64,000 bases of DNA. Source: Candidatus Kaiserbacteria bacterium. Lineage in GTDB: Bacteria > Patescibacteriota > Minisyncoccia > Phycocordibacterales > UBA2100. A program made the position numbers and the translations under genes. Positions 4,894 to 55,142 of this stretch are shown one piece after another. The stretch lies in NCBI GenBank assembly GCA_016217925.1, contig JACRFK010000003.1, positions 271,656 through 335,655 on the forward strand, written 5' to 3'. Positions within the stretch are counted from its first letter, which is position 1. Each line of letters begins with the position of its first letter. The notes beneath the pieces are model-generated. The model ran no database searches. It was not told where the DNA came from and worked only from the letters and a program-made list of their open reading frames with translations.

Positions 4894-5775
4894 TCAATCG
4901 TCAAGGAGACCTAGACGATAAATATCAAAAGAATTCTCGCCCTCGAACATGTCGGAAGGATTCGGGAGGTAGATGCGGCGGCGGGATATCTCGGTGGTTG
5001 CGTCGTTGATGAGCCGGTGAAAGATCTCGAATTCCTCCGAGACGGTTGTGTAGTCGATGATGTAGCGGCGCATTTGCGACGAGCCGTCGGCGTTCTTCCT
5101 TTTCTTGCATTCTTGCACGATAAACCTGCGCACCTCTTTGCCGTACTTTTGTTTGACCGTGTAGTAATTGAATATAGCTTGCATGACGAACAGGGTCTTC
5201 TGCCCGCGGCCCTTGCTGAAGGTGTCCACGAACTTGTGGTCCACGATGTCGAGCGCCCCCGGCTGCAGGCGTGATTCGACGACGAGGTCCGAAACTGCCT
5301 TGATGGGAAGCGGCAGGCCCTCGACATGCGCGAGGGCGACCACCTCGACGCCGAGCACTTTGTGCTTGGGCGCTCGCGCGAGGTAGAACTGAATCGCCTG
5401 CAGATAGTCACGCTCCATGTGAGCACGCTTTTCTTTTTGTGCGCGACGCGACTTTGCTTTGCCGAAATTAATCTCAAAATCCGCAACGTTGCGTAGGTAT
5501 TCGAGCCCCAGCTCCACCGAGCCTTCTTTTCCTCCGGGGGAGGATCCACCTCCGGCGGACCCTATCCCGCCATAATAGTGCTGAAGCGCCACATGCGCTG
5601 CACGACCAACAAGAGAAGAGGGATTGGCGGGTGTATCGTAGACTTTTTCGACGTAGCGCTTGTACCACGCGAGCGGATTGCGCAAAAATGCCATGAGCGA
5701 AGAATGGCTCCAGTGCTGTATGGGCAATGCCGTCTTGAGGCGGGCTTTCTTCTTCATGTGATTTTGCGAAATCAT
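4894..5775 (-). CDS. PD-(D/E)xK nuclease family protein (Cas4/RecB-like fold) carrying the in-frame mini-element
   Basis: N-terminal HWSHSSLMAFLRNPLAWYKRY and a D..D.K block (GALDIVDHKF) typical of PD-(D/E)xK nucleases. Contains GSAGGGSSPGGKEGS, encoded by the element at 5527-5560. Confidence 0.5.
   Translation of the reverse strand: MISQNHMKKKARLKTALPIQHWSHSSLMAFLRNPLAWYKRYVEKVYDTPANPSSLVGRAAHVALQHYYGGIGSAGGGSSPGGKEGSVELGLEYLRNVADFEINFGKAKSRRAQKEKRAHMERDYLQAIQFYLARAPKHKVLGVEVVALAHVEGLPLPIKAVSDLVVESRLQPGALDIVDHKFVDTFSKGRGQKTLFVMQAIFNYYTVKQKYGKEVRRFIVQECKKRKNADGSSQMRRYIIDYTTVSEEFEIFHRLINDATTEISRRRIYLPNPSDMFEGENSFDIYRLGLLDD
5527..5560 (+). repeat. Palindromic mini-element, family A copy (variant with GGATCCACC)
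   Basis: ttttcctccgggggaggatccacctccggcggac; in-frame within the nuclease gene. Confidence 0.7.
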
Positions 5776-5824
5776 GCCGCGTAATCGTCTATTAAAACGC
5801 GGCCTTATAGTATATACTGGACCG

Positions 5825-5944
5825 ATGGCAAAACGAGCAAGTCAGGATATTAAGAACAAAAAGTCGCGTTCGCGAAAGACGAAGAAACGCCTCGCAGCCA
5901 AGCGGGCTATGCTCGCCGCCCGCAAGGCAAAGAAGCGCCGTTAA
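5825..5944 (+). CDS. Possible very basic small protein (39 aa), not in the ORF track
   Basis: ATG..TAA ORF encoding MAKRASQDIKNKKSRSRKTKKRLAAKRAMLAARKAKKRR. Preceded by TATAGT/TATACT -10-like sequence. Composition resembles ribosomal-type basic proteins, but it is not assignable. Confidence 0.3.
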   Translation: MAKRASQDIKNKKSRSRKTKKRLAAKRAMLAARKAKKRR

Positions 5945-5960
5945 CAGAGCGGCGTTTTTC

Positions 5961-5993
5961 TTTGGACAAACACGGGGCAAGAAGGTAGCATTC
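5961..5993 (+). promoter_or_regulatory. Promoter-like motif TTTGGACAAA-N13-GGTAGCAT, 6 nt before the ATG of the 5998 gene
   Basis: The same bipartite motif recurs at 7771-7803, 8261-8291 and 8810-8840, and partially at 6813 and 7660. Confidence 0.4.
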
Positions 5994-5997
5994 GGCG

Positions 5998-6840
5998 ATG
6001 AAAGGAGAGCCGTCCGTTTTACGAAATTCCGGGAAGGCGGAGCTCAGTGAACGGTGGGAGCGGAATTTAGAAGTGGTCAACGAATGCATGGCCGCCGCAT
6101 CTAGCGTATTTGAATCCACCATTCGTACAAAGGGCTTCGACGACACGGTCCGGGATAGGGGTTTTTTGACGGAGGTTTGGAGCCACGGTGAGAAGCGGGA
6201 AGCGCTCGCTGAAGTACTGTTCGGCCTGCGACCGGAAAAGAACATCGGGGCCCTGCAAGCGACAATCAATGGTAAAAGGATCCTCGTCGTCGGCGGTGGC
6301 GCCTCCATGGACGACCTCCTGTCCGATAACCGGTTCGCGCCCGCTCTTTTGCTAAACGTCGACCCCTTTTTGGTCGAAGAAAAACCGGCGCGGGGAGCGG
6401 CAGGCTATTACCGCTCTTTGCCGCTCGATGCCGCATCGGCCGACTTTTTACAGGCCCTTCAGGCCGGGGGGCATGATACATTCGATGAGATATGGGCGAC
6501 GTGGAGCGTCCCCCATTATTGCAAGACACCCGACGAAGTTGCCCGGTACTTTGCGAACATGTTCAAAGCACTGGAGCCGGGCGGCACTCTGCGTATTTGC
6601 CCGGTCACGTTCGTCGTAGACCCGATGCCGCCAATCGTTCGGACTGCGGTTGTCGCGGAGCTTGCATCAGCGCTGTCCGCGAGCTTGAGGACGCTCGCAC
6701 AAATGCCCAATGTGGAAATGTCGCGGCACGACAACACGCTTCCCGACGGTAGAATTCTGCCGGAACTTTCCACGCTTATCATTCACAAAACTGCCTTTGG
6801 AAACGATCGACATTTGGACAAAGCCGGAGCGGGGGTATGA
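5998..6840 (+). CDS. Hypothetical protein; possible class I SAM-dependent methyltransferase fold
   Basis: ILVVGGGASMDD (glycine-rich motif-I-like) and EPGGTLRI (post-I-like). Weak assignment. Confidence 0.35.
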   Translation: MKGEPSVLRNSGKAELSERWERNLEVVNECMAAASSVFESTIRTKGFDDTVRDRGFLTEVWSHGEKREALAEVLFGLRPEKNIGALQATINGKRILVVGGGASMDDLLSDNRFAPALLLNVDPFLVEEKPARGAAGYYRSLPLDAASADFLQALQAGGHDTFDEIWATWSVPHYCKTPDEVARYFANMFKALEPGGTLRICPVTFVVDPMPPIVRTAVVAELASALSASLRTLAQMPNVEMSRHDNTLPDGRILPELSTLIIHKTAFGNDRHLDKAGAGV

Positions 6841-6890
6841 AAGAAAGGCGCCCGTATTCCGTCCTCATGTAGGTAAGGCTTAAAAGCTAA

Positions 6891-7178
6891 TTGTGTAAAC
6901 ATATGACATTTACTCTCGTTTTGGGCGCGTTGCTCGGAGCCTTCGCGGTCGTCTTTGCGATGGACAACAGCGCACTCGTCACGGTGCATTTACTATCGTG
7001 GGAAGTAACCGCGCCGCTTGCAATTATACTTATGTCCGCAGTGGTGCTTGGTATTCTTGTGGTACTTATTGCAATGATCCCGCGGGCCATACAGCGCACG
7101 ATGGAGGAATACGCTGTTCGCCGCGAAAAGAGAAAGGTGGAGCTGGCCATGGTGAGAGAACAATCTCAGGCCGTCTGA
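6891..7178 (+). CDS. Small membrane protein, LapA/DUF1049-like
   Basis: Two TM helices followed by a basic tail (AIQRTMEEYAVRREKRKVELAMVREQSQAV). Confidence 0.4.
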   Translation: MCKHMTFTLVLGALLGAFAVVFAMDNSALVTVHLLSWEVTAPLAIILMSAVVLGILVVLIAMIPRAIQRTMEEYAVRREKRKVELAMVREQSQAV

Positions 7179-7207
7179 TTTGGCAAACCTGAGATGGGGG
7201 TATAGGA

Positions 7208-7585
7208 TTGCGTTCCGGTCACTCTTTCACGACCGAGCTACAGGGGAGAAAACTGAAGATGTCGATGGATTCAAGCCTGAGGCGGCAGAAGCCTCACGCA
7301 ATGTCGAAGGCCACACCCGGCCAGGCCCGCAGTGCTCCGCGTAAGCGGGCACGCCAACGCGAGAACGCCGCATGGTGGATTGCCGAAGCGGCAAAGGCCG
7401 GCGTGACCGTGCTGAAATTCCGCCAGATGTGCGCCGTCGCTACGGCCGGAATGGGCGTCCCGCATCACGTCGTGAAGATATCGCGGGGTTACTCCCAGTA
7501 CGAGCTGGAGCCGGTGGTCCATAGCACCCGGAGCAGCTACGCTGGCTCCGGCGGCTCGCGCTTCTTCGGCGGCAACTACCGCTGA
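7208..7585 (+). CDS. Hypothetical protein
   Basis: 125-aa ORF with no recognisable motif. Confidence 0.25.
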   Translation: MRSGHSFTTELQGRKLKMSMDSSLRRQKPHAMSKATPGQARSAPRKRARQRENAAWWIAEAAKAGVTVLKFRQMCAVATAGMGVPHHVVKISRGYSQYELEPVVHSTRSSYAGSGGSRFFGGNYR

Positions 7586-7770
7586 CGTCGCATTACCTCG
7601 CGTCGTTCAGTCAACAAGATCCGGCCGGGCCCAGTGCCCGGCCGCTCGTTTTTAATATATTTGGACAACTATTCGCTTATTCGCGCGAATTAGAGAATAG
7701 CGGAGTCCCTATTTCGACCCCAGTAGTAGAGCAAAGCTCTACGGGGCTAGGAAAACCTAGGGCGGGAGTA

Positions 7771-7803
7771 TTTCTAGACAAATATTCATGAGGGGGTAGC
7801 ATT
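7771..7803 (+). promoter_or_regulatory. Promoter-like motif (TTCTAGACAAA-N13-GGTAGCAT) before the HIT gene
   Basis: See 5961-5993. Confidence 0.35.
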
Positions 7804-7808
7804 TCGCT

Positions 7809-8258
7809 ATGGCTATCGTGTTCGAAACGAATAACTTCTTAATCGTCGCGCCCGAAAAACCCCATGTGTCTCGATCTGACGGAGGCCACCTTGTCGTTGT
7901 GCCGAAAGTCGAGGTCGAGGACAGAACAAAACTGACGGCTCCCCTGGCGATCGAGCTAATGAAACTAACCATGCTTAGCGGAGAAGCGTTGCGTACGGTC
8001 ATGACCACGCGCGGCATCGAAATTGGCCGAATCAACTACCAAGACAACGGCAACTGGACACCGCATCTTCATATTCATATCTACGGGCGCGCGAAAGGCG
8101 CTGTATTGCAGCCTTACGGTACCCCCCTTCACTCTCCCGCGACTCGCAAAGAATTTGAGGCTATGCCTACGCTTGAGCCTCTCAATGAGGATGATGTCGC
8201 CGAGATAAAGTCGGAGATTGGCAGACTCCTACAATCAGAAAAATATCGCAATTTCTAA
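7809..8258 (+). CDS. HIT (histidine triad) family hydrolase
   Basis: HLHIHIY (HxHxHxx) plus the N-terminal NNFLIVAPEKPHV...GHLVVVPK block. Confidence 0.65.
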   Translation: MAIVFETNNFLIVAPEKPHVSRSDGGHLVVVPKVEVEDRTKLTAPLAIELMKLTMLSGEALRTVMTTRGIEIGRINYQDNGNWTPHLHIHIYGRAKGAVLQPYGTPLHSPATRKEFEAMPTLEPLNEDDVAEIKSEIGRLLQSEKYRNF

Positions 8259-8260
8259 GT

Positions 8261-8291
8261 TTTGGACAAACCTTAGGCGAACAGGTAGCAT
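8261..8291 (+). promoter_or_regulatory. Promoter-like motif TTTGGACAAA-N13-GGTAGCAT before the GNAT gene
   Basis: See 5961-5993. Confidence 0.4.
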
Positions 8292-8297
8292 CTAAAA

Positions 8298-8831
8298 ATG
8301 GACATTAGAATACGCGACGCGGTGCCGGACGACGCTGAGGCGGTAGAACAAGTGCGCTACCAAGGTTGGCTTGCCACTTACCCGAACGAAGAATTCCGAA
8401 TCACAAGAGAAGACATCAAGGAACTATTCAGGCCCCAGCTCTCCCCTGAAGGTATCGAGAATCGGCGACATAAGATTTCGGAGGTTCAGAAAACAGGACG
8501 GTATGTCGTCGCCAAAGTGGACGGGAGGATTGTCGGCTTCTGTATCCTCATACGGTACGAAGAAAAGAACCAACTGCGCGGCATTTACGTACTCCCCGGC
8601 TACCAGGGTAAGGGCGTAGGAAAGGCGCTTTGGCAGGAGGTCCGCGCATCCATTGACCCGAAAATGGACACCTATGTCGAGCTGGCTGCCTACAACGCCG
8701 TCGCCATCGGTTTCTATTCAAAGTTCGGCTTCAAGGATACCGGCCGCAGATTCAGTAATGAGAGCCAAAAATTGAAAAACGGGGCGAAAATCCCCGAAAT
8801 GGAGATGCGTTTGGACAAAGCGGGACAGTAG
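8298..8831 (+). CDS. GNAT family N-acetyltransferase
   Basis: Motif A (acetyl-CoA binding): LRGIYVLPGYQGKGVGKALWQEV. Confidence 0.65.
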   Translation: MDIRIRDAVPDDAEAVEQVRYQGWLATYPNEEFRITREDIKELFRPQLSPEGIENRRHKISEVQKTGRYVVAKVDGRIVGFCILIRYEEKNQLRGIYVLPGYQGKGVGKALWQEVRASIDPKMDTYVELAAYNAVAIGFYSKFGFKDTGRRFSNESQKLKNGAKIPEMEMRLDKAGQ

Positions 8832-8840
8832 GTATACGCT
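8810..8840 (+). promoter_or_regulatory. Promoter-like motif TTTGGACAAA-N..-GGTATACG before the RT gene
   Basis: See 5961-5993; the -10-like part is a variant. Confidence 0.3.
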
Positions 8841-8848
8841 GCATTTAT

Positions 8849-10429
8849 ATGTCGTTTGGCTTACCGCAAGGTATAATCGATTTTTTTGATGTCGACAAAG
8901 CGATCGCACGAATAAAAAATGACCTCCAATCGGATTTCATTTACGCACCGCATTTGAATGCCATATACGCATTAGCGAAAACCGAACTACAGGCGGGACT
9001 CTTTGGAAAACTTGCAACTGGGACTTTTGACCCAAGTCTACCTGTTACTATTGAGGTGCCAAAAGCATCCGGGCTGGGAAGACCCGGATCCATACTCCTC
9101 CCCTACGAACGGTTAATCTATCAGCTTGTTGTCGATGATATCGCGGTAACTGCGGACCTTAATCTGGACAGGACTAGCGTGTTCAGTAATAAGCTGTTAA
9201 CGGCAGACCCCAATGGGTTTATGTTCGAACCCACGGGGGATTGTTATGCAGAATATAAGACCGCAATAGCAAGGCACGCCCAGAATCCGAGGTTTTCACA
9301 CGTGATACAGACCGACATAGTATCTCATTTTCAGAATTTAAATCAGCACAACTTAATTAACTTACTTACATCAGCTGGATGCAATGCTGACGAGGCAAAA
9401 TTTCTTGAAAGAATGCTTTCTCAACTTGCTGAAAAAAGTTCACGAGGGATTATTCAAGGTGTTATGCCCTCTGACTTCTTGGGGAACTTCTCTCTGTGCT
9501 CGATAGACGGTCAACTTGCCGTCAATGGTCTAACTTTTGCTCGGTACGTGGACGATATCTCCATCTTTCTAAACGGCGAACAGGAATGCCGATCGGTTAA
9601 ATTGAAGTTGTCGCACTGGCTGCGTAAAGAAGGCTTGGACTTGAGTGAAGCAAAAACAAAGGTGCTGCCGGTAGCCGCTTTCCTTCAAGAAGAGACGCGG
9701 GTCGAGCAGATGTTTGATGAAGCAAAGGACGAACTGTCCGGGTCGTTCGATAGAAATGATTTTTATCGATCAGCAATTTCGTGGGACTTTCCGCAGGACG
9801 ACGACGAGGAGGCGGATGACCAAGAGGTGATTTTGTTGGCCACACGAAATCTATTCGACATGAATGTTGATGTTTCAGTAAAGGATAAAATCGATAAGTT
9901 TTGTATTCCAACATTCATCGCATCGTTCGATGATTACGCGATTAATGCTCTCCTAACAAGATTCATTTCTCGACCTCACTTAGCACAGTTATATGCGAAA
10001 TATTTCCGAAGAATGATTACAGTTGGCCATTTGAATGCAGCTCGACTTGAACCATTACTAGCGGATCAAACTATTATTTCGGAATATCAATATATGTGGC
10101 TCTACGCTGCTCTCATGGTTGTAGAGCCAGGCCGAGTCGGCCGACCAAGTATTGCGTTTGCACTCCAACAATACAGAAATGCGAATATTTCCCCTTCGTT
10201 GAGGGCGGTATCTGCAATATTTGTCGCGAAATACGGTACCCCTGTAGAAAAAAGATTAATTAAGGACAGTTATGCCCAAGAACAGTCCGACTACGTGAGA
10301 GCTGCAATTTTATATTCGGCTCGATACTTCACGGCAGCGGAACGTGCAACGTGTTATCGCGCCTGGGGCGGGCATAGCGAACTTAACTCCCTCGTTGTGA
10401 GCGCGTCGAGAAATACTCCCGCCGCTTGA
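8849..10429 (+). CDS. Reverse transcriptase, unclassified (Abi/UG-like), with ~240-aa alpha-helical C-terminal extension
   Basis: RT motifs 1-2 (IEVPKASGLGRPGSILLPYERLIYQLVVDDI), 3 (HVIQTDIVSHFQNLN), 4 (GIIQGVMPSDFLGNF), C (YVDD in FARYVDDISIF) and 7 (KTKVLPV). No maturase, retron VTG or nitrilase/HEPN domain was seen. GC is lower than the surroundings. Confidence 0.75.
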   Translation: MSFGLPQGIIDFFDVDKAIARIKNDLQSDFIYAPHLNAIYALAKTELQAGLFGKLATGTFDPSLPVTIEVPKASGLGRPGSILLPYERLIYQLVVDDIAVTADLNLDRTSVFSNKLLTADPNGFMFEPTGDCYAEYKTAIARHAQNPRFSHVIQTDIVSHFQNLNQHNLINLLTSAGCNADEAKFLERMLSQLAEKSSRGIIQGVMPSDFLGNFSLCSIDGQLAVNGLTFARYVDDISIFLNGEQECRSVKLKLSHWLRKEGLDLSEAKTKVLPVAAFLQEETRVEQMFDEAKDELSGSFDRNDFYRSAISWDFPQDDDEEADDQEVILLATRNLFDMNVDVSVKDKIDKFCIPTFIASFDDYAINALLTRFISRPHLAQLYAKYFRRMITVGHLNAARLEPLLADQTIISEYQYMWLYAALMVVEPGRVGRPSIAFALQQYRNANISPSLRAVSAIFVAKYGTPVEKRLIKDSYAQEQSDYVRAAILYSARYFTAAERATCYRAWGGHSELNSLVVSASRNTPAA

Positions 10430-10438
10430 AGTTTGGTC

Positions 10439-11737
<1,299 letters not shown>

Positions 11738-11810
11738 CCTCCTCTTCTTCGAGGGTTACTCATGCACACAGAGTCTTACCACTCTCGAGCTTGCCTTACT
11801 CTTTTCCTCC

Positions 11811-11850
11811 GAAGGAGGACCCTCCTCTGGAGGGCAAAATAAGCCGCAGG
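11811..11850 (+). repeat. Family A mini-element, divergent intergenic copy between rpoD and dnaG
   Basis: ttttcctccgaaggaggaccctcctctggagggcaaaa. Confidence 0.55.
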
Positions 11851-11868
11851 AAGACCAAGCGCAGCAGT

Positions 11869-13665
11869 CTACACGTTCTCGTGCAGTTGCGCAATGCGAG
11901 TTGTCAACAGTTTACACACACCCATGAGCCGAGTCACCTCCTCCTCGTCCTTCCCGTTTTCAGCCTTCTTTAGAGCCATGGTAGCGTCATCGAGCTCGGC
12001 GGCGAGAAGTTCTTTGAGGATAACTACGAGCAGGGCTTTGGTCTCGCGTTCAGGGTTCGTACTTTTGCCGTGCAGTTTTTCGGCGGAAAATCGGAGCGCC
12101 TCCCGCTCGCTTTCGGTGAGCGTGGAGAGGCTTGCAAAGGCCTCCGGCCCTATCGCCGTCTCAAGTTCGGTCGCATATGCCGCGACATCTATCGAGGGCT
12201 TCTCCAGTGATTGCTGCCACAGGAGTATGGAGAAAGCCTGGCGGGCGCGGCTCGACGCACGGGTGCTTCGCCACGATGTTTTTGGATCAACTTTCGGCAC
12301 GGAGGCCGGAGCGACCGCACTTGCCGGGCCCGGTGAGGTTGGAAGCTTCCCAAGCGCTTCGCCGACCGCTGATTCGGAGACTCCGAGCCTTCGCGCTATC
12401 TCGTGCACATGCTGTTCGCGCGCTATCGGACTTTGCACATCGGACAGAAACGGCAGCACTATCGTTTCTACCGCGCGCCGGAAGCGATCCTTCTGGGGCA
12501 GATGCTCTTCAAGCACTTCGAGGAGGAATAGGATGATGTCTTTTGAATCTCGTATCGCTTTTTTCCACGCATCCGCGCCTTCTTTTCCTCCTGAGGAGGA
12601 TCCGCCTCCGGCGGACTGAATTAAATCCGCAGGGTCGAGCCCCGTCGGCAGCCGCGCGACTTTTACGTTGAGCCCACCTTGGAGCGCGGTGCGCGCAGCG
12701 CGTCCCGCCGCCTTGATACCCGCCTCATCAGCATCGAGCGCGAGCACGAGGTTGTCCGTCATGCGGCGAATGAGGGCTGCATGCTCAGGCGTAAACGCCG
12801 TGCCCGAGACGGCGACGGTATTCGCCCACCCGGCCTGGTGCGAGGCCAGCAGGTCCATCTGACCTTCCACCAGAACCGCGCAATTGAGCTTCCGGATGGC
12901 GACTTTTGCCCTATCAAAGCCATATAATACGCGGGATTTGTGGAAAAGCGGCGTCTCGGGGCTGTTGAGGTACTTGGGCGCATCGGGCGAGGCTGCCTCG
13001 CCGAAGATGCGGCCGGAAAAGCCGACGACGCGGCCCGCGGAGTCGGCAATGGGAAAGATGATGCGGTAGCGGAAGTTGTCGGTGAGAGAGCCCCGTTCGT
13101 TCTTCTTGGCGACACCCGCTTCGAGCATCTCCCGCTCGGTATATTTTCCTCCGGAGGAGGATCCGCCTCCGGCGGATTTCATTTTCAAATAATCGGAAAG
13201 TTCGGACCAACTATCCCCCGCGAGACCGAGACGGAATGATTGTATGGTCGCATCGGTCATGCCGCGCCCTTTCAGGTACTTCTTCGCCGCATCGTTGAGG
13301 CGTGAGGTATAAAAAATCGTTGCAGTCTCCAAAAGCTCGAACAGTCGCTCGCGTTCGTCTTTCTTCTCTTTGCCGCCGCGTTCGTAGACCAACTCTACTC
13401 CCGCCTTTTCCGCGAGCACTTTGAGCGCACCTTTGAAGTCGAGGCCCTCGATAGCTTCGACAAAAGAAAAAATATCCCCGCCGACGTTGCAGCCGAAACA
13501 GTGATACGTGCCCCGCTCCGGCGACACATGGAAAGAGGGCGTTCGCTCCGCGTGAAAAGGACACCGCGCGCGCAAGGAAGCGCCCGCGCGCTGCAGCTTC
13601 ACGTATTGCGACACCACGTCGACGATCGAGAGCCTATCTTTGATTTGTTGTACCGTATCCGCCAT
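11869..13665 (-). CDS. dnaG: DNA primase DnaG with two in-frame mini-element insertions
   Basis: Zinc finger CPFHAERTPSFHVSPERGTYHCFGCNVGGD; TOPRIM EGQMDLL...ALDADEAG. Insertions SAGGGSSSGGKYTE and SAGGGSSSGGKEGA. Confidence 0.85.
   Translation of the reverse strand: MADTVQQIKDRLSIVDVVSQYVKLQRAGASLRARCPFHAERTPSFHVSPERGTYHCFGCNVGGDIFSFVEAIEGLDFKGALKVLAEKAGVELVYERGGKEKKDERERLFELLETATIFYTSRLNDAAKKYLKGRGMTDATIQSFRLGLAGDSWSELSDYLKMKSAGGGSSSGGKYTEREMLEAGVAKKNERGSLTDNFRYRIIFPIADSAGRVVGFSGRIFGEAASPDAPKYLNSPETPLFHKSRVLYGFDRAKVAIRKLNCAVLVEGQMDLLASHQAGWANTVAVSGTAFTPEHAALIRRMTDNLVLALDADEAGIKAAGRAARTALQGGLNVKVARLPTGLDPADLIQSAGGGSSSGGKEGADAWKKAIRDSKDIILFLLEVLEEHLPQKDRFRRAVETIVLPFLSDVQSPIAREQHVHEIARRLGVSESAVGEALGKLPTSPGPASAVAPASVPKVDPKTSWRSTRASSRARQAFSILLWQQSLEKPSIDVAAYATELETAIGPEAFASLSTLTESEREALRFSAEKLHGKSTNPERETKALLVVILKELLAAELDDATMALKKAENGKDEEEVTRLMGVCKLLTTRIAQLHENV
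12581..12620 (+). repeat. Family A mini-element copy in dnaG
   Basis: tcttttcctcctgaggaggatccgcctccggcggactgaa. Confidence 0.75.
13141..13180 (+). repeat. Family A mini-element copy in dnaG
   Basis: atattttcctccggaggaggatccgcctccggcggatttc, the consensus copy. Confidence 0.75.
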
Positions 13666-23625: not shown

Positions 23626-24030
23626 TCAAAGCGCGAGCCACACAGCAAGAAGTAGGAAAATTAGAGCGATGCCGACCATTAGTCCCGTTCCGATGTTCGT
23701 ACTCGACTCGATTATTTTCGAAGATCTCCACCAACTTGATTTGAAGAAATATACAGATAAGAGTCCATAGAGTAGTGCTCCTCCGATGACAACATATAGT
23801 CTAGTTACCGCCGAATCGTACTGTATTTGGTAGTATAAGGTAAACAAAAGTGCTGCGAATCCGACCACAGATAGCAATATCCATTGCGTGTTACTGTATA
23901 CAATGGGCGTCACTTTCTGCCCAGACGCTTTCGGCACAAGCCACTTGCCCAGCCTCCTTTGGTAATATGCAACTAATAAGAGAAGCAGCGCCATCGGCAC
24001 CAAAATTCCAGGTAGATCCCAGTCCCACAT
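23626..24030 (-). CDS. Hypothetical membrane protein
   Basis: Four predicted TM helices. Lies in the lower-GC REPtron neighbourhood. Confidence 0.4.
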   Translation of the reverse strand: MWDWDLPGILVPMALLLLLVAYYQRRLGKWLVPKASGQKVTPIVYSNTQWILLSVVGFAALLFTLYYQIQYDSAVTRLYVVIGGALLYGLLSVYFFKSSWWRSSKIIESSTNIGTGLMVGIALIFLLLAVWLAL

Positions 24031-24113: not shown

Positions 24114-24851
24114 CGTTAATATTGGGAGGTTAAACCTCCGGAGATTCGTGGTAATCTTTCAGGATGGCAACACGTGCACCATGCGTGACGGAAGAATGGT
24201 ACCACTGTTACAACAGAGGCGTTGATAAACGGAAGGTTTTCGAGTCAAAAGCTGACTACGAACGCTTTATGGGGCTTTTATATGTTTCAAATGGAGATAG
24301 GACTGAGGCAATCTCGGACAGATATCGGAGAGATTTCCCCTCCCTCCTTGCAGAGGACCCGAAGGATCGGGGTGAGCCTCTCGTGGATATTGCCGCTTTT
24401 TCGCTGATGCCGACCCATGTGCACTTCGTGCTGCAACAACTTCAAGACGGAGGGATAGCACGATTCATGCAGAAAATATTTACCGCCTACACGATGCACT
24501 TCAATGCGAGGCGCGAGCGGACAGGAGCCTTGTTCGCGGGTACGTACAAAACGAAACATATCGACGATGACCGGTACCTCAAGAAAGTGATTCCGTACGT
24601 TATTTTGAACCCTGCGGAGTTGTTTGAACCGAAATGGAAACAAGGAAAATGCGATATCGGAAAGATGCGCACACAATTATTGGAATATCCGTACTCAAGT
24701 GTGAAAGAGTTCTTCAACAAAGATGCAACGGCCCAGAAAATTACCGGCGCAGGTATACGGGAATACTTTGACCGAATGCCCAATCTGACGGAAATGCTTG
24801 AAGACGCCCGCGACTACTACCGCGAGTATTCTCCGGAGGTTTAACCTCCGG
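24114..24851 (+). mobile_element. REPtron: REP hairpin + RAYT/IS200-like Y1 transposase gene + REP hairpin
   Basis: GGGAGGTTAAACCTCCGGAG at 24114-24133. Perfect 10-bp-stem hairpin CTCCGGAGGTTTAACCTCCGGAG at 24829-24851, which supplies the TAA stops of both convergent genes (RAYT and trmD). Confidence 0.65.
24164..24844 (+). CDS. REP-associated tyrosine transposase / IS200-like HuH Y1 transposase
   Basis: HuH motif LMPTHVHFVLQQ; catalytic Tyr block TGALFAGTYKTKHI; N-terminal WYHCYNRGVDKRKVF; C-terminal YVILNP. No TnpB partner. Confidence 0.75.
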   Translation: MATRAPCVTEEWYHCYNRGVDKRKVFESKADYERFMGLLYVSNGDRTEAISDRYRRDFPSLLAEDPKDRGEPLVDIAAFSLMPTHVHFVLQQLQDGGIARFMQKIFTAYTMHFNARRERTGALFAGTYKTKHIDDDRYLKKVIPYVILNPAELFEPKWKQGKCDIGKMRTQLLEYPYSSVKEFFNKDATAQKITGAGIREYFDRMPNLTEMLEDARDYYREYSPEV

Positions 24852-25548
24852 AGTTTTTGCGCCCTTTCTTCCACTTCTCTATTTCAGCGTGATTACCCGA
24901 GAGTAGGACCTTGGGAACGCGGTGTTTTCTTCCCTTCCATTCAAGCACTTCGGGGCGCGTATAGACTTCCGGGCTGGATACGCGACTCGCTTCCAGAGAT
25001 TCGGCTTTGCCCAAGACTCCTGGGACGTGCCGGGAAATGGCGTCTATCAGTGTTGTTGCAGGAAGCTCGCCGCCCGTAAGCACGTACGGGCCGACTGAGA
25101 CCTTCTTGGCCTTTCCTCCGAAGGAGGATCCGCCTCCGGCGGACAATACTTTAAAGACCCGCGCATCCACACCCTCATAGTGTCCGCAGATAAATAGAAC
25201 GTCTTTTTTCTTCGAAAGTTTCTTCGCCATCGCTTCATCGAATAATGCGCCGTCAGTCGCGAAGAATATCTTCTCCACTCCCTTCTTATTCCCTATCGCT
25301 TTCTTTACCGCGTTCAACATCGGCTCGGGCCGCAAAACCATACCTGGCCCTCCCCCGTACGGCCGACGATCCACGCGCATATCTTGCGTGCGGGAACTCT
25401 TGCCAATGAATCTTTTGGGGTCGTAGTAGGAAATCTTTATTTTCTTCGCGGCGATAGCACGACCAATGATAGAAGCCTTGAGATACGGCTCGATTGATTC
25501 CGGAAACAAAGTGATGATGTGAAAGTGAATCATAGTCCGCATTTCCAA
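24841..25548 (-). CDS. trmD: tRNA (guanine37-N1)-methyltransferase with in-frame mini-element
   Basis: SPOUT/TrmD motifs (IIGRAI..., ICGHYEGVD, GPYVLTGGELPA). Insertion SAGGGSSFGGKAKK at 25111-25148. C-terminal NSGG-stop is encoded by the REP hairpin. Confidence 0.85.
   Translation of the reverse strand: MEMRTMIHFHIITLFPESIEPYLKASIIGRAIAAKKIKISYYDPKRFIGKSSRTQDMRVDRRPYGGGPGMVLRPEPMLNAVKKAIGNKKGVEKIFFATDGALFDEAMAKKLSKKKDVLFICGHYEGVDARVFKVLSAGGGSSFGGKAKKVSVGPYVLTGGELPATTLIDAISRHVPGVLGKAESLEASRVSSPEVYTRPEVLEWKGRKHRVPKVLLSGNHAEIEKWKKGRKNSGG
25111..25148 (+). repeat. Family A mini-element copy in trmD
   Basis: ctttcctccgaaggaggatccgcctccggcggacaatac. Confidence 0.75.
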
Positions 25549-43241: not shown

Positions 43242-45350
43242 TTAAATGTCCAACGTTGCCTCTTTGGCGTGACTCTGGATGAACGATTTGCGCGCGGGGA
43301 CGTCGGTACCCATGAGCATGTCGAATACCATGTCGGCCTCTTGCGCGTCTTCGATGCTCACCTGCAAAAGGATGCGCCGAGCCGGGTCCATCGTGGTCTC
43401 CCACAATTCTTCGGAGTTCATTTCCCCCAGACCTTTGTAGCGTTGCACGGATACTTTCGCGACCTTCCCGACGCTCCGACCTTCGTCGGAGGTCGGGACC
43501 CCGGCATCGACTTCGTCGAGCGTCGGGGCTTCGAGCGGCACATCCTTACCGACGAGCTTTATGCGTTCATCGTCGGAGTAGGCGTAATGTATCTCCTTGC
43601 CCTTGCGTACCTTGAAAAGCGGTGGCTGCGCGATGTAGAGGAATCCGCCGTCCACAACGGGCCGGAAGTGGCGGAAAAAGAGCGTCAGCAAGAGCGTGCG
43701 GATGTGTGCGCCATCCACGTCGGCATCGGTCGCGATGATTATTTTGTGATAGCGCAACTTGGTGACGTCGAAGATGTCGCCTATCGCGGTGCCAAGTGCG
43801 ACCACGAGATTACGTATCTGCTCTGATGCGAGCATTTTGTCTATGCGGGCGCGTTCGATGTTGAGAATCTTCCCGCGTAATGGAAGCACCGCTTGGATGC
43901 GGCGGTCGCGACCCATTTTGGCGGTACCGCCAGCTGAATCCCCCTCGACGATGAAAAGCTCGGACTCTGAAGCGTCTTTGGTCTGGCAATCGGCGAGCTT
44001 GCCCGGGAGCGTCATGCCGTCCAAGGCACCTTTGCGCATGATGCTGTCTTTGGCGGCTTTTGCGGCTTTACGCGCTTTCATCGCGAGCGTGATCTTCCCG
44101 AATATCGCACGTGCCTCCTCCGGATGCTCTTCGAGGAATGTACTGAATGCTTCTCCGAAAACAGTCTCGACAGCGCCGCGCGCCTCAACGCTCCCTAGCT
44201 TGCCCTTGGTCTGGCCTTCGAACTGGATCTCGCGTAATTTCACCGATACTACGGCGGTCAAGCCTTCGAGCGCATCGTCACCGGTAAAGCTGTCGCTTTC
44301 TTTTCCTCCGGAAGAGGATCCGCCTTTGGCGGAGCCGTTTCCATTATGAGAGTTCAGCGTGCGCGTGAGCGCGGTCTTGAATCCGGTGATGTGCGTGCCA
44401 CCTTCGGCGTTGTAAATATTGTTTGCAAATGCGGAGATGCGCGAGGTTATGTCGTCCACGTACTGTAATGCGACTTCAACGTGCACGCCGTCTTGCTCTT
44501 TCTCTACATAAAAGACGGTCTTGTGGATGGTCTCGAGGTGATGATTTTGGAACGAGACGAGACTACGCAAACCGCCCTCGAAGTAAAACGTAACGGACGG
44601 CGCATCTAGCCCCTTTGTGCCGGAGGCACCGACCGGTAAGTCGCGCAGATAAAATACTTCTTCGTCGTCTACTTTCTCCACTTTGCGCAGATCGAGTATC
44701 GAGATGCGGAGTCCTTTGACCAAGTACGCCTGTTGGCGCATGTGGGAAACGATGGTATCCCAGTTCAATTCTCTGTCCGGAAATATGGAAGGGTCTGATT
44801 CGAAGGTAATGATGGTGCCGTGCAGTTTTGAAGTACCTATTTTTTTGGTCTTGCCGACCGGTTTTCCGCCATTTTTATACTCTTGAATATACTGACCGCC
44901 GTCGCGATGCACTTCCGCGCGAAGGCGCGTTGATAGAGCGTTGACCACAGAGACTCCCACGCCGTGCAAACCGCCAGAGACTTTGTACCCCTCGCCGCCG
45001 AATTTTCCTCCGGCGTGAAGCATCGTCATCACTGTCTCGAGCGTCGAAACCTTAGTCTTCGGATGTATCTCTACCGGAATGCCGCGGCCGTTGTCGGCGA
45101 CGCGTATGCGATTGTCCGGAAGAAGTGCGACCTCCACATCATTGGCGAAGTCGCCCATCGCTTCGTCGCGTGAGTTGTCGAACACTTCCCAGACGAGGTG
45201 ATGGAGGCCTGCGGTACCCGTGGTACCGATGTACATGCCCGGACGGCGGCGCACGGCTTCCAACCCCTCAAGAACGGTAATGTCAGAGGCTCCATAGGAG
45301 CCTGTTTTTGCCGCCTTTTCCGGGGCCTTTTTTGCCTTCTTTTCAGCCAT
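43242..45350 (-). CDS. gyrB: DNA gyrase subunit B with in-frame mini-element
   Basis: GHKL ATPase (LHHLVWEVFDNSRDEAM, GGLHGVGVSVVNALS), TOPRIM (IVEGDSAGG). Insertion SAKGGSSSGGKESD at 44300-44337. Confidence 0.9.
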   Translation of the reverse strand: MAEKKAKKAPEKAAKTGSYGASDITVLEGLEAVRRRPGMYIGTTGTAGLHHLVWEVFDNSRDEAMGDFANDVEVALLPDNRIRVADNGRGIPVEIHPKTKVSTLETVMTMLHAGGKFGGEGYKVSGGLHGVGVSVVNALSTRLRAEVHRDGGQYIQEYKNGGKPVGKTKKIGTSKLHGTIITFESDPSIFPDRELNWDTIVSHMRQQAYLVKGLRISILDLRKVEKVDDEEVFYLRDLPVGASGTKGLDAPSVTFYFEGGLRSLVSFQNHHLETIHKTVFYVEKEQDGVHVEVALQYVDDITSRISAFANNIYNAEGGTHITGFKTALTRTLNSHNGNGSAKGGSSSGGKESDSFTGDDALEGLTAVVSVKLREIQFEGQTKGKLGSVEARGAVETVFGEAFSTFLEEHPEEARAIFGKITLAMKARKAAKAAKDSIMRKGALDGMTLPGKLADCQTKDASESELFIVEGDSAGGTAKMGRDRRIQAVLPLRGKILNIERARIDKMLASEQIRNLVVALGTAIGDIFDVTKLRYHKIIIATDADVDGAHIRTLLLTLFFRHFRPVVDGGFLYIAQPPLFKVRKGKEIHYAYSDDERIKLVGKDVPLEAPTLDEVDAGVPTSDEGRSVGKVAKVSVQRYKGLGEMNSEELWETTMDPARRILLQVSIEDAQEADMVFDMLMGTDVPARKSFIQSHAKEATLDI
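44300..44337 (+). repeat. Family A mini-element copy in gyrB (variant)
   Basis: cttttcctccggaagaggatccgcctttggcggagccg. Confidence 0.7.
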
Positions 45351-52774: not shown

Positions 52775-53779
52775 TTAGCCTTTTACGATACCCAAATGAC
52801 GTAACCATTTTTCGGTGTATCTGTCCGGATCCAAAAGCTTGTATTTTGCATCGAACCGGGCAAGGTCCCGCACTGGTGTCGTTCTACCCATCTTGGAGTA
52901 TTCAGCCAGAAAATCTTTGCCGAACGTCTCCTCAAACAACTCGGCTGTTTCTTCATGGAATAACTCAGGCTTCTCGAAGTAACCCCGCTTGAAACTCTTC
53001 CAAACCTCTTCCGCGGGTACACCGGTATATTCGGCAATAGAATCGCACATTGAACCGACTTGGTTGCTGTAGAGGAAATAACTCCAATAACTCTTCGATT
53101 GTTCCCGCGTGAATGTACCGAGCTTGCAATCTGCCTCTCCCGACTTGCCGGCTCTTCGGTGGTATTCCAAAAATATCTCTTCCGCGATTCGTTGGGTAAC
53201 GCCTTCGTTGAAAGCTTCGAACGACGAGGATATCAACCTTGTAGATTCGTGTTCACCGTACGTGTAGTTTGCCATCCGATATCCGGAGTCCTGATGCAGT
53301 CTACTTTGAGGTGCATTGACATCAGTGGAATAAATTCTCTCGCGCGAGAAAACATGGCATGCCTCATGAATAAAGAATAGCTGCATTTTCATCAACAACT
53401 CTTGGGGAATTGTCCGTTGCTCAGTTTTGTGAAGTTTTGCTTCCAAAAAATGCTTATCGCTCGTCGAGAAAGACATAACGTTCTCGAATGACTGATACTC
53501 GGCAATGTTACTCTCCATCGGATAAACAAATATCCTATCAAGGACTGCTTCGTTTGAATTTTCTAGCGGAACCCCTGACTTCAGTAAGTGCTCTCGAAAA
53601 ATCGCCTTGAGCACCTTCATGTCCAAGGAGCCAAGAATTTCTTTTGCAAGTTCAACGTTTTCTGGGTGGAAATCAGCCTGGCCGCTTTCGTATCCTTCGT
53701 AATAAGCGATGTTTTCATCGCGCATTTGGCGAGTTCGTGGAGTCAGCTTCGCATCGTATCCACCAATCTTCTCATCCAT
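52775..53779 (-). CDS. Hypothetical HExxH zinc-metallopeptidase-like protein in a lower-GC islet
   Basis: FFIHEACHVF (HExxH). No other recognisable domain. AT-richer than the flanking genes. Confidence 0.45.
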   Translation of the reverse strand: MDEKIGGYDAKLTPRTRQMRDENIAYYEGYESGQADFHPENVELAKEILGSLDMKVLKAIFREHLLKSGVPLENSNEAVLDRIFVYPMESNIAEYQSFENVMSFSTSDKHFLEAKLHKTEQRTIPQELLMKMQLFFIHEACHVFSRERIYSTDVNAPQSRLHQDSGYRMANYTYGEHESTRLISSSFEAFNEGVTQRIAEEIFLEYHRRAGKSGEADCKLGTFTREQSKSYWSYFLYSNQVGSMCDSIAEYTGVPAEEVWKSFKRGYFEKPELFHEETAELFEETFGKDFLAEYSKMGRTTPVRDLARFDAKYKLLDPDRYTEKWLRHLGIVKG

Positions 53780-54813: not shown

Positions 54814-55095
54814 TTACTTTTTGGAGGTCTTCGGCTTCGAGGTAATCTTCGTGGATGCGGCGCGCTTCTTGAACTTGTCTACACGTCCCGCAGTATCAAT
54901 GGTTTTGGCCGTGCCTGTATAAAAAGGGTGCGACGCACTCGAAATTTCCACCTGAAAGATAGGGTATTCTTTGCCGTCGTCCCACTTGTCCTTTTTCGTT
55001 GTCTCTATCGTTGAACCAATAAGATACCGCTTCCCCGAAGTGGAGTCTTCGAAGATGACCTGTCGGTATGTATCCGGATGAATGTCTTTTTTCAT
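54814..55095 (-). CDS. rpmE: 50S ribosomal protein L31 (type B) with C-terminal basic extension
   Basis: [29 protein letters not shown]...HPFYTG. Confidence 0.8.
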
Positions 55096-55142
55096 GACTG
55101 GCAGAGAATACACGAAAAATCGAAAAAAGACAATGCTTGGCG

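What the first reader, a model, noticed from the sequence alone, without database searches (positions are those of the whole stretch)
7771..10429. Lower-GC island encoding HIT hydrolase, GNAT acetyltransferase and an unclassified reverse transcriptase with a ~240-aa alpha-helical C-terminal extension: candidate defence or abortive-infection module
Three consecutive + strand genes sit between housekeeping genes on the other strand. The third (8849..10429, 526 aa) has RT motifs 1-7 including YVDD. It has no maturase/X domain, no retron VTG motif and no nitrilase/HEPN fusion. Its C-terminal half is helical-repeat-like (...ALLTRFISRPHLAQLYAKYFRRMI...). This architecture resembles AbiK/Abi-P2 or the unknown-group (UG/DRT) defence RTs.

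The RT gene is distinctly AT-richer than the backbone, e.g. 9300-9420. It abuts the rpoD stop with 9 nt to spare, so any template ncRNA would have to overlap coding sequence.

HIT and GNAT neighbours are not, to my knowledge, canonical partners of defence RTs. The combination may be a new configuration, or may be coincidental neighbours sharing a regulon.
Basis: partly seen in the sequence, partly recalled or inferred. Interest (0 to 1): 0.75.

Follow-up and report, generated by a model that had tools for sequence, protein, structure and literature searches.

The report
Stand-alone UG20 defence-type reverse transcriptase
The reverse transcriptase is a typical member of UG20, an already catalogued but untested group of bacterial defence-type DNA polymerases, and the neighbouring HIT and GNAT genes are not its partners.

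Summary
The three genes exist as described: HIT 7809-8258, GNAT 8298-8831 and RT 8849-10429. The RT is not unclassified. It matches the PADLOC RT_UG20 model end to end (E 2e-163), which places it in Class 1 of the UG/Abi reverse transcriptases.

A confident AlphaFold model shows an RT core, a disordered acidic linker and a helical-repeat (alphaRep) C-terminal domain. Its only full-length structural matches are DRT6, DRT4, AbiK, AbiA and Abi-P2. These are protein-primed, template-independent DNA polymerases that act in abortive infection.

The HIT and GNAT link is not supported. No homologue of either was detected by single-sequence phmmer in 83 homologous RT loci. Pfam scans of 284 flanking genes from 76 of those loci found no recurrent partner.

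A sister Kaiserbacteria genome has HIT | AIPR | rpoD where this window has HIT | GNAT-RT | rpoD. HIT is therefore a flanking lineage gene, and the slot next to rpoD exchanges abortive-infection-type genes.

Only the RT is compositionally foreign (GC3 z = -3.0). There is no room for a template RNA and no signal of one.

Tyr306 is conserved in 98% of 173 homologues and lies inside the variable linker. It is a candidate priming residue, by inference only. A 19-nt inverted repeat brackets the three genes and remains unexplained.

Verdict: a new member of a known kind, of modest interest.

The parts
8849..10429 (+). UG20 (Class 1 UG/Abi) reverse-transcriptase-like polymerase gene, 526 aa; a stand-alone single-gene system
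   Evidence: PADLOC RT_UG20 E 2e-163, residues 3-519 against model positions 2-510 of 511. 241 homologues in the large protein database. AF2 model pLDDT 88, pTM 0.87.
8849..9742 (+). RT core (fingers and palm), residues 1-298. The motif A Asp156 codon is 9314-9316. YVDD (residues 233-236) is at 9545-9556.
   Evidence: RVT_1 E 1e-13. D156, D235 and D236 are conserved in at least 97% of 173 sequences, and Y233 in 96%. Codons verified.
9743..9814 (+). Disordered acidic linker, residues 299-322. It contains Tyr306 (9764-9766) and Trp312 (9782-9784). Tyr306 is a candidate protein-priming residue (inference).
   Evidence: pLDDT below 50 over residues 299-322. Y306 is 98% and W312 96% conserved, while the surrounding positions vary. 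AbiA primes from Tyr298/Tyr303 in its equivalent linker (PMC12783706).
9815..10426 (+). C-terminal alphaRep (HEAT-like helical repeat) domain, residues 323-526
   Evidence: Eleven helices at pLDDT mostly above 90. Full-length alignments to DRT6, DRT4 and AbiK. This half alone matches YibA, CpcE/F and designed alphaRep proteins.
8810..8848 (+). Host-type promoter-like box for the RT (TTTGGACAAA-N-GGTATAC). Its -35 element lies inside the last codons of the GNAT gene.
   Evidence: Sequence. The same box precedes orf280, LapA, HIT and GNAT, and precedes unrelated genes in relative L088. It is absent upstream of RT homologues.
8273..10451 (.). Variable cargo (GNAT plus RT) relative to the sister genome, which carries an AIPR gene and a terminator at this position
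   Evidence: blastn of L090 and L085 against the window: homology ends at 8272 and resumes at 10452. AIPR PF10592 scores 89.6 bits.
8298..8831 (+). GNAT acetyltransferase. It lies inside the variable cargo but has host-like composition. It is not a conserved RT partner.
   Evidence: Pfam. No PADLOC hit. GC3 z +0.1. Absent next to RT homologues.
7809..8258 (+). HIT-family hydrolase with an intact HxHxHxx motif. It is a flanking lineage gene, not part of the RT system.
   Evidence: Pfam HIT. The family is 60-88% identical across CPR lineages. It is retained beside AIPR in the sister genome and sits in his/arg or HAD/NUDIX contexts elsewhere.
7761..7779 (+). Left arm of a 19-nt inverted repeat that brackets HIT-GNAT-RT (unexplained)
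   Evidence: 18 of 19 complementary to 10405-10423. 1 of 300 simulations reaches this. The left arm is 16/19 conserved in sister genome L090.
10405..10423 (-). Right arm of the inverted repeat, overlapping the last seven codons of the RT
   Evidence: It is absent from the sister genome's AIPR/rpoD junction.

Best explanation
Gene 8849-10429 encodes a stand-alone UG20 enzyme, a Class 1 UG/Abi reverse-transcriptase-like polymerase with an RT core fused through a flexible acidic linker to an alphaRep domain. It was acquired horizontally by a Candidatus Kaiserbacteria genome and sits in a variable slot between a lineage HIT gene and the rpoD stop codon. A host-type promoter-like box embedded in the end of the preceding GNAT gene lies upstream of it.

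By analogy with its only full-length structural relatives (DRT6, DRT4, AbiK, AbiA, Abi-P2), it most likely assembles into an oligomer. It would prime DNA synthesis on one of its own tyrosines, with Tyr306 in the linker the best candidate. It would make single-stranded DNA without any RNA template. It would protect the population by abortive infection when a phage factor lets that DNA accumulate.

Shown here: family membership, fold, intact catalytic residues, no conserved partner gene, no flanking RNA, foreign composition, and exchange of the slot with an AIPR gene.

Inferred, not shown: protein priming, template independence, oligomerisation, the defence role and its trigger.

HIT and GNAT are bystanders.
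For: Membership: RT_UG20 at 543 bits, full length, against 219 bits for the next group.

Catalysis: D156, YVDD and 47 other positions conserved at 97% or more are all present in the window protein.

Stand-alone status: no neighbour family recurs in 83 loci or in the Pfam scans of flanking genes.

No template RNA: the gaps are 17 nt upstream and 9 nt downstream. No flank is conserved. The only shared 30-nt element is a terminator. There is no credible Rfam match at E up to 1; the only hit is SorX at 20.4 bits against a gathering score of 46.6. Folding of 8600-8900 gives z +0.81.

Horizontal origin: lowest GC and GC3 of 57 genes. The nearest relatives are 64% identical and come from low-GC genomes. 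UG20-like genes occur on conjugative megaplasmids.

Defence context: the same slot in the sister genome holds AIPR. One homologue lies in a Dam/DpnII/GmrSD island. Shango, Hachiman-like, BrxH and Mokosh genes occur here and there next to homologues.

Mechanism of relatives: DRT4 and DRT6 perform protein-primed, template-independent synthesis. Priming tyrosines sit at varied positions, and AbiA's is in the RT-alphaRep linker (PMC12783706).
Against: No UG20 member has been tested experimentally in the literature I could search. Mestre et al. rated the defence association of UG20 as inconclusive.

Neighbours of homologues are mostly ordinary genes. One homologue sits between tuf and rpsJ.

Some Class 1 enzymes do not make random DNA. 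Drt3b and DRT7 make protein-templated repeats, so the product here is unknown.

The choice of Tyr306 rests on conservation and position only. Y91, Y385 and Y475 are equally conserved.

CPR hosts and their phages are uncultured, so the trigger is unknown.
Confidence: 0.65

Rival explanations
1. HIT, GNAT and the RT form one three-gene defence or abortive-infection module, possibly a mobile unit delimited by the 19-nt inverted repeat.
For: The genes are on the same strand with tight spacing of 39 and 17 nt. They share a promoter-like box. An 18/19 inverted repeat brackets exactly these three genes, and chance gives this in 1 of 300 simulations. HIT matches PADLOC ThsC weakly (E 1.6e-4). A separate 2.8-kb assembly contig spans just this block.
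Against: No HIT or GNAT relative lies beside any of 83 RT homologues. The sister genome keeps HIT and the left repeat arm but has AIPR in place of GNAT-RT. HIT relatives sit in his/arg and HAD/NUDIX contexts without an RT. The three genes differ in composition, and only the RT is foreign.
Confidence: 0.04
2. GNAT and the RT are a lineage-specific two-gene cassette in which the acetyltransferase modulates the RT or acts as its effector.
For: Both genes lie inside the segment that differs from the sister genome. They are 17 nt apart, and the RT promoter box is embedded in the GNAT 3' end.
Against: GNAT has host-like GC3 (z +0.1) whereas the RT has z -3.0. There is no PADLOC hit. No GNAT lies upstream of any UG20 homologue, and GNAT occurs in 2 of 140 downstream neighbours, a background rate for this very common family. 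Its best family match is RimI-like and below the cut-off.
Confidence: 0.07
3. The enzyme is an RNA-templated reverse transcriptase that copies a dedicated non-coding RNA, as in DRT2, DRT9 or retrons. The RNA would overlap coding sequence.
For: It has an intact RT active site. The RT core alone resembles group II intron and DGR RTs. The spacer upstream of HIT folds better than shuffles (z -2.8).
Against: The flanking gaps are 17 and 9 nt. No flank is conserved across 80-odd loci. There is no credible Rfam match. Folding of 8600-8900 gives z +0.81. The 7586-7808 spacer contains a terminator and is not conserved in the sister genome. The ncRNA-dependent systems DRT2 and DRT9 belong to Class 2, which lacks the alphaRep fusion. 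No template/variable repeat pair is present.
Confidence: 0.05
4. The architecture and priming are as in the best explanation, but the product is a defined, protein-templated repeat or homopolymer, as for Drt3b or DRT7, and not random ssDNA.
For: Drt3b (UG8) and DRT7 (UG10) are also Class 1 enzymes and make patterned DNA. UG20 is distant from DRT4 and DRT6, at 12-15% identity.
Against: Both of those work with a second polymerase activity, either another RT plus an ncRNA or a fused primase-polymerase. UG20 lacks any such partner. The closest structural matches are the random-sequence synthesisers DRT6 and DRT4.
Confidence: 0.15
5. The gene has a non-defence role in this reduced genome, or is an inert passenger.
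For: Defence enrichment for UG20 was inconclusive. Homologues sit beside housekeeping genes, one between tuf and rpsJ. No phage-borne copies were found.
Against: The ORF is intact with every family-invariant residue. It has a host-type promoter box. The slot alternates with an AIPR gene. The family shows patchy cross-phylum distribution and low GC, as expected of mobile defence genes.
Confidence: 0.08

Closest known systems
UG20 group of Class 1 UG/Abi reverse transcriptases (Mestre et al. 2022, PMC9226505; PADLOC model PDLC03758)
   Same: It gives a full-length profile match at 543 bits. It has the RT core plus a C-terminal HEAT-like alphaRep domain. It is a single gene without a conserved partner.
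   Different: Nothing in its architecture differs. The host is new: a CPR bacterium, Candidatus Kaiserbacteria. The position against the rpoD stop codon is particular to this lineage.
DRT6 (UG12) and DRT4 (UG15), single-gene hexameric protein-primed template-independent ssDNA polymerases (PDB 9wy8, 9vdo, 9l9s; PMC12783706)
   Different: Sequence identity is only 12-15%. NCBIfam Drt4 scores 38.5 bits against a cut-off of 450. DRT4 primes from Tyr125 in the palm, whereas UG20's best candidate is a linker tyrosine. The activity and trigger of UG20 are untested.
AbiK, Abi-P2 and AbiA abortive-infection polymerases (PDB 7r06/7r07, 7r08, 8oz7)
   Same: They share the RT plus helical-repeat architecture. 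AbiA's priming tyrosines lie in the flexible RT-alphaRep linker, the position of UG20 Tyr306.
   Different: These are separate UG/Abi groups. NCBIfam AbiA scores 32.9 bits against a cut-off of 250. AbiA carries an extra HEPN domain that UG20 lacks. They come from lactococcal plasmids or a P2 prophage.
AIPR (PF10592, abortive infection phage resistance protein)
   Same: It occupies the identical HIT-to-rpoD slot in the sister Kaiserbacteria genome.
   Different: It is an unrelated protein family. The relation is positional only.

Membership tests
UG20 (Class 1 UG/Abi RT) | Best and full-length match to the group profile, clearly ahead of the other UG groups | tested here: met
   RT_UG20 E 2e-163, 543 bits, residues 3-519 against model positions 2-510 of 511. 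UG21 is next at 219 bits.
UG20 (Class 1 UG/Abi RT) | RT domain with intact catalytic motifs (motif A Asp, YxDD) | tested here: met
   D156 and YVDD 233-236 are present and conserved in 96-100% of 173 homologues.
UG20 (Class 1 UG/Abi RT) | C-terminal alpha-helical HEAT-like (alphaRep) domain fused to the RT | tested here: met
UG20 (Class 1 UG/Abi RT) | Stand-alone gene with no obligate partner gene | tested here: met
   No recurrent neighbour in 83 loci. Pfam scans of 144 upstream and 140 downstream neighbours give at most 3 members per family.
Class 1 UG/Abi polymerases (functional definition) | Protein-primed DNA synthesis without a nucleic-acid template | not testable with these tools
   Shown only by analogy with DRT4, DRT6 and AbiK. 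The conserved linker Tyr306 is a candidate primer.
Class 1 UG/Abi polymerases (functional definition) | Oligomeric (trimer or hexamer) assembly | not tested
   Only a monomer model was predicted.
Anti-phage defence system | Protection against phage, or enrichment in defence islands | tested here: inconclusive
   The slot alternates with AIPR in the sister genome. One homologue sits in an R-M/GmrSD island. Defence neighbours are scattered, but most neighbours are ordinary genes. The literature rates UG20 as inconclusive.
   0 phmmer hits in 83 loci. Neither family is among the recurrent upstream Pfam families. GNAT is in 2 of 140 downstream neighbours. The closest relatives lack both. HIT persists without the RT.
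Retron | Retron-type RT plus an adjacent msr-msd ncRNA | tested here: not met
   NCBIfam retron St85 scores 36.8 bits against a cut-off of 235. There is no intergenic room, no Rfam match and no conserved flank.
Group II intron RT/maturase | Maturase (X) domain and intron RNA domains | tested here: not met
   TIGR04416 scores 66.5 bits against a cut-off of 300. PDB sequence matches to group II RTs cover only profile positions about 45-276, the RT core. No group II intron RNA was found by Rfam. The C-terminal domain is an alphaRep, not an X/thumb domain.
Diversity-generating retroelement | Template and variable repeat pair near the RT | tested here: not met
   No long direct repeat pair in 5800-12000. 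The DGR RT aligns over only 266 residues of the core.
DRT4, DRT5, AbiA (NCBIfam equivalogs) | Score above the curated family cut-off | tested here: not met
   Drt5 scores 80 against 550, Drt4 38.5 against 450 and AbiA 32.9 against 250.

The most novel reading that the evidence does not exclude
The 19-nt inverted repeat (7761-7779 and 10405-10423) marks HIT-GNAT-RT, or GNAT-RT, as a lineage-specific functional or mobile unit. In that case a nucleotide-adduct hydrolase and/or an acetyltransferase would cooperate with a UG20 polymerase, for example by processing or regulating its protein-linked DNA. This would be a partner combination not seen in any other UG/Abi system.
Probability: 0.05. Interest if true: 0.6.

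Novelty: new member of a known kind. Interest (0 to 1): 0.3.

Why it matters
UG20 is catalogued, but no experiment on it appears in the literature I could search, and its defence role was left open in 2022. This locus adds three modest points.

1. A natural slot-swap with an AIPR abortive-infection gene in a sister genome is circumstantial support for a defence role.
2. It gives a testable candidate priming residue, Tyr306 in the RT-alphaRep linker, conserved in 98% of 173 homologues.
3. It shows that such polymerases reach the small genomes of CPR bacteria, here wedged against the essential dnaG-rpoD genes.

It does not reveal a new system architecture. The HIT/GNAT configuration that made the finding look novel is coincidental.

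Tried and rejected
1. Scanning genome contigs with the single protein found nothing. Repeating it with an alignment worked.
2. Scans of viral contigs and phage records found no UG20 relatives, so I have no evidence that the gene is phage-borne.
3. ncRNA hypothesis. I compared 400-nt flanks across loci, aligned the downstream regions (which showed only a terminator), ran Rfam at both thresholds and computed folding z-scores. None supported an ncRNA.
4. I first thought the TTTGGACAAA...GGTAGCAT box might travel with the RT or mark cassette boundaries. It is absent upstream of RT homologues and precedes unrelated genes in relative L088, so I treat it as a host promoter type. A seventh, weak minus-strand match at 10442 is within the roughly two matches I estimated by hand to arise by chance at that stringency (hits listed).
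5. The supplementary tables of Mestre et al. are not held, so their UG20 member counts and defence scores could not be read.
6. No solved UG20 structure exists. PDB sequence matches cover only the RT core.
Whether this GNAT exists without an RT in other Kaiserbacteria is therefore untested.
Full report
OBSERVATION

The three + strand ORFs are real and sit at the stated coordinates: HIT 7809-8258 (149 aa), GNAT 8298-8831 (177 aa) and RT 8849-10429 (526 aa). Pfam confirms HIT (E 7e-10), GNAT (Acetyltransf_7, E 5e-17) and RVT_1 (E 1e-13). The convergent neighbour is rpoD, followed by dnaG. YVDD is at 9545-9556. The RT stop is 9 nt from the rpoD stop codon.

Three details need correcting.
- The + strand block begins at 5998, not at HIT. 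It comprises orf280, a LapA-domain gene, orf125, HIT, GNAT and the RT.
- Only the RT is compositionally unusual. It is the lowest-GC gene of 57 in the window (GC 0.454, z -2.6; GC3 0.442, z -3.0). HIT has z -1.0, and GNAT has GC3 z +0.1.
- The RT is classifiable (next section).

WHAT THE RT IS

PADLOC's RT_UG20 model matches residues 3-519 against model positions 2-510 of 511, at E 2e-163 and 543 bits. The next group, UG21, scores 219 bits. NCBIfam models for group II intron RT/maturase, retron RTs, AbiA and Drt2-5 all score far below their cut-offs.

Mestre et al. 2022 define UG20 as a Class 1 UG/Abi RT. Its C-terminus shows remote homology to HEAT-like repeats (the alphaRep domain). They list UG20 among the groups whose defence association was inconclusive. 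I found no later paper that mentions UG20.

The exact protein is annotated at NCBI as an RNA-directed DNA polymerase of a Candidatus Kaiserbacteria bacterium, on a 376-kb contig.

STRUCTURE

An AlphaFold2 model built from a 30-sequence alignment is confident (pLDDT 88.3, pTM 0.87). It shows an RT core up to about residue 298, a disordered acidic linker (residues 299-322, pLDDT below 50), and eleven helices from 322 to 521.

PARTNERS: THE HIT/GNAT QUESTION

I collected 83 loci that encode UG20-like RTs.
- Eleven came from context look-ups of the closest homologues.
- Seventy-two came from one-genome-per-species contigs. They are mostly Alphaproteobacteria, with a Methanosarcinales archaeon, Pedobacter, Nitrospirota, Dehalococcoidia, KSB1 and Clostridia as well.

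The tests for partnership were all negative.
- phmmer with the window's HIT and GNAT found no relative among 5,587 ORFs of these loci.
- Clustering 830 neighbour proteins gave no family shared beyond duplicate contigs.
- Pfam scans of the two upstream genes (144 proteins) and the two downstream genes (140 proteins) of 76 non-redundant loci gave at most 3 members per family. HIT never appeared among the recurrent families. GNAT appeared in 2 of 140 downstream neighbours.
- The closest relatives (63-64% identity) lie beside an aldo-keto reductase or unrelated small ORFs.
- A 51% relative lies between tuf and rpsJ.
- A 50% relative lies in a Dam/DpnII/methylase/GmrSD island beside HNH and terminase genes.
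- A 47% relative lies beside an integrase.

Known defence genes (Shango, Hachiman-like, BrxH, Mokosh, mads, Cas1) occur next to individual homologues, but none recurs. UG20 is therefore a stand-alone gene, as Mestre et al. describe for several Class 1 groups.

THE LOCUS IN SISTER GENOMES

Contigs carrying rpoD that is 95-99% identical give the comparison.
- In L088 (rpoD 96%), PDDEXK, orf125, LapA and rpoD are present. orf280, HIT, GNAT and the RT are absent.
- In L085 (rpoD 99%), the gene convergent on rpoD is an AIPR protein (PF10592, 89.6 bits against a cut-off of 25).
- The closest HIT relative (88% aa, L090) is followed directly by that same AIPR gene.
- L090 overlaps L085 at 100% identity over 1,537 nt, so the sister genome reads HIT | AIPR | rpoD.

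Nucleotide homology between L090 and the window (87%) runs from 7760 through HIT and ends at 8272, just after the -35-like box. It resumes at 10452 inside the rpoD 3' end. The exchanged segment is thus GNAT plus RT (about 2.18 kb) in the window and AIPR plus a terminator (about 1.46 kb) in the sister.

Other members of this well-conserved HIT family (60-88% identity across CPR lineages) sit between his and arg operons, or among HAD/NUDIX genes, without an RT or a GNAT. HIT is a flanking lineage gene. GNAT lies inside the variable cargo, but its host-like GC3 and its absence from all other UG20 loci argue against co-transfer or partnership with the RT.

TEMPLATE RNA

- The RT has 17 nt upstream and 9 nt downstream.
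- The 400-nt flanks of homologues share nothing with the window or with each other. The one exception is a 30-nt terminator hairpin shared by two subgroups.
- Rfam finds only a tRNA elsewhere in the window at gathering thresholds. Around the RT, at E up to 1, it finds only a sub-threshold SorX hit on the terminator.
- No template/variable repeat pair exists.

This fits Class 1 enzymes, which work without an ncRNA.

MECHANISM (INFERRED)

DRT4 and DRT6 are single-gene oligomers. They constitutively make protein-linked ssDNA without a template, and host 3'-5' exonucleases remove it. A phage ssDNA-binding protein protects the product, and its accumulation kills the cell. AbiK, Abi-P2 and AbiA also make random ssDNA from a priming tyrosine whose position differs between families. 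In AbiA it is Tyr298 or Tyr303 in the RT-alphaRep linker (PMC12783706).

In 173 UG20 sequences, Tyr306 is 98% conserved and Trp312 96% conserved. Both lie in a motif Y-G-F-x-x-x-W embedded in the otherwise variable, acidic, disordered linker. I therefore propose Tyr306 as the priming residue. This is an inference from conservation and position only, and Y91, Y385 and Y475 are equally conserved. The product could instead be patterned, as for the Class 1 enzymes Drt3b and DRT7.

EXPRESSION

A box of the form TTTGGACAAA-N11-13-GGTAGCAT, followed 7-12 nt later by the start codon, precedes orf280, HIT and GNAT. Variant -10 forms precede LapA and the RT. These five sites are the only good matches in the 64-kb window.

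The RT's -35 element is encoded within the last GNAT codons (RLDKAGQ*), and LapA's within the last orf280 codons (HLDKAGAGV*). The same box precedes two unrelated small genes in relative L088. It is absent upstream of RT homologues. I read it as a host-lineage promoter type under which the imported RT is expressed.

UNEXPLAINED

A 19-nt inverted repeat, 18 of 19 complementary, brackets HIT-GNAT-RT. The arms are at 7761-7779 and 10405-10423, and the right arm covers the last seven RT codons. Only 1 of 300 simulated sequences yields such a repeat, and the window holds no other copy.

The sister genome keeps the left arm (16/19) upstream of its HIT but has no right arm. The repeat may be a recombination scar or an inverted copy of the HIT-promoter region at the insertion junction. 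It does not outweigh the comparative evidence against a three-gene module, but it keeps a small probability alive for one.

VERDICT

This is a typical member of a known, experimentally uncharacterised group (UG20), newly seen in a CPR bacterium. It occupies a slot that also hosts an AIPR gene in a sister genome. Interest is modest, at 0.3.

Noticed in passing
window 5527-5559, 12583-12615, 13144-13176, 25111-25143, 44301-44333 (all - strand); also L085 3424, 6130, 6291: A 33-nt match (TCCGCCGGAGGCGGATCCTCCTCCGGAGGAAAA) containing two short palindromes occurs 5 times where 0 are expected. It is always in the same reading frame inside long ORFs (PDDEXK nuclease, dnaG twice, two others) and encodes SAGGGSS[S/P/F]GGK. 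Orthologues show clean presence or absence of a 30-nt (10-aa) insertion: dnaG has 2 copies here, 1 in L085 and 0 in L086 and L088, and PDDEXK has 0 in L088. It looks like a miniature in-frame palindromic insertion element, reminiscent of Rickettsia palindromic elements but much shorter.
   Followed up: partly
window 5961-5991, 6813-6838, 7773-7802, 8261-8291, 8810-8840 (+); L088 10536 and 10080 (-): A promoter-like box, TTTGGACAAA-N11-13-GGTAGCAT, followed 7-12 nt later by the start codon, precedes five consecutive genes in the variable region. It appears nowhere else in 64 kb. Twice its -35 element is embedded in the last codons of the preceding gene, giving ...LDKAG C-termini. It implies near-leaderless transcripts and one promoter per gene.
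   Followed up: partly
window 7761-7779 and 10405-10423: A 19-nt inverted repeat, 18 of 19 complementary, brackets HIT-GNAT-RT. Chance gives this in 1 of 300 simulations. The left arm is conserved in the sister genome and the right arm is absent. Its origin and function are unresolved.
   Followed up: partly
window 5776-10451 compared with L085, L088, L090: The interval between the PDDEXK nuclease gene and rpoD is a hypervariable region among Kaiserbacteria whose rpoD is 95-99% identical. Its alternative contents are orf280, HIT, GNAT and the RT here; HIT and AIPR in one sister genome; and an acyltransferase plus small ORFs in another. Several assemblies break at this point.
   Followed up: yes
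window 7586-7808: The 223-nt spacer upstream of HIT folds better than shuffles (z -2.8). It holds a strong terminator (7622-7644), another TTTGGACAA box (7661) and several hairpins, including a palindrome at 7669-7700. Its centre is not conserved in the sister genome, and Rfam gives only a sub-threshold SorX hit.
   Followed up: partly
L003 5291-6850: A UG20 homologue (51% identity) is inserted between tuf (EF-Tu) and rpsJ, at the head of the ribosomal protein cluster. This is another insertion directly beside core genes, as with rpoD here.
   Followed up: no
window 23626-24030, 24164-24844, 52775-53779, 54814-55146: Four further genes have GC well below the window mean (z -1.7 to -2.5). They may be other horizontally acquired segments. 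I did not examine them.
   Followed up: no
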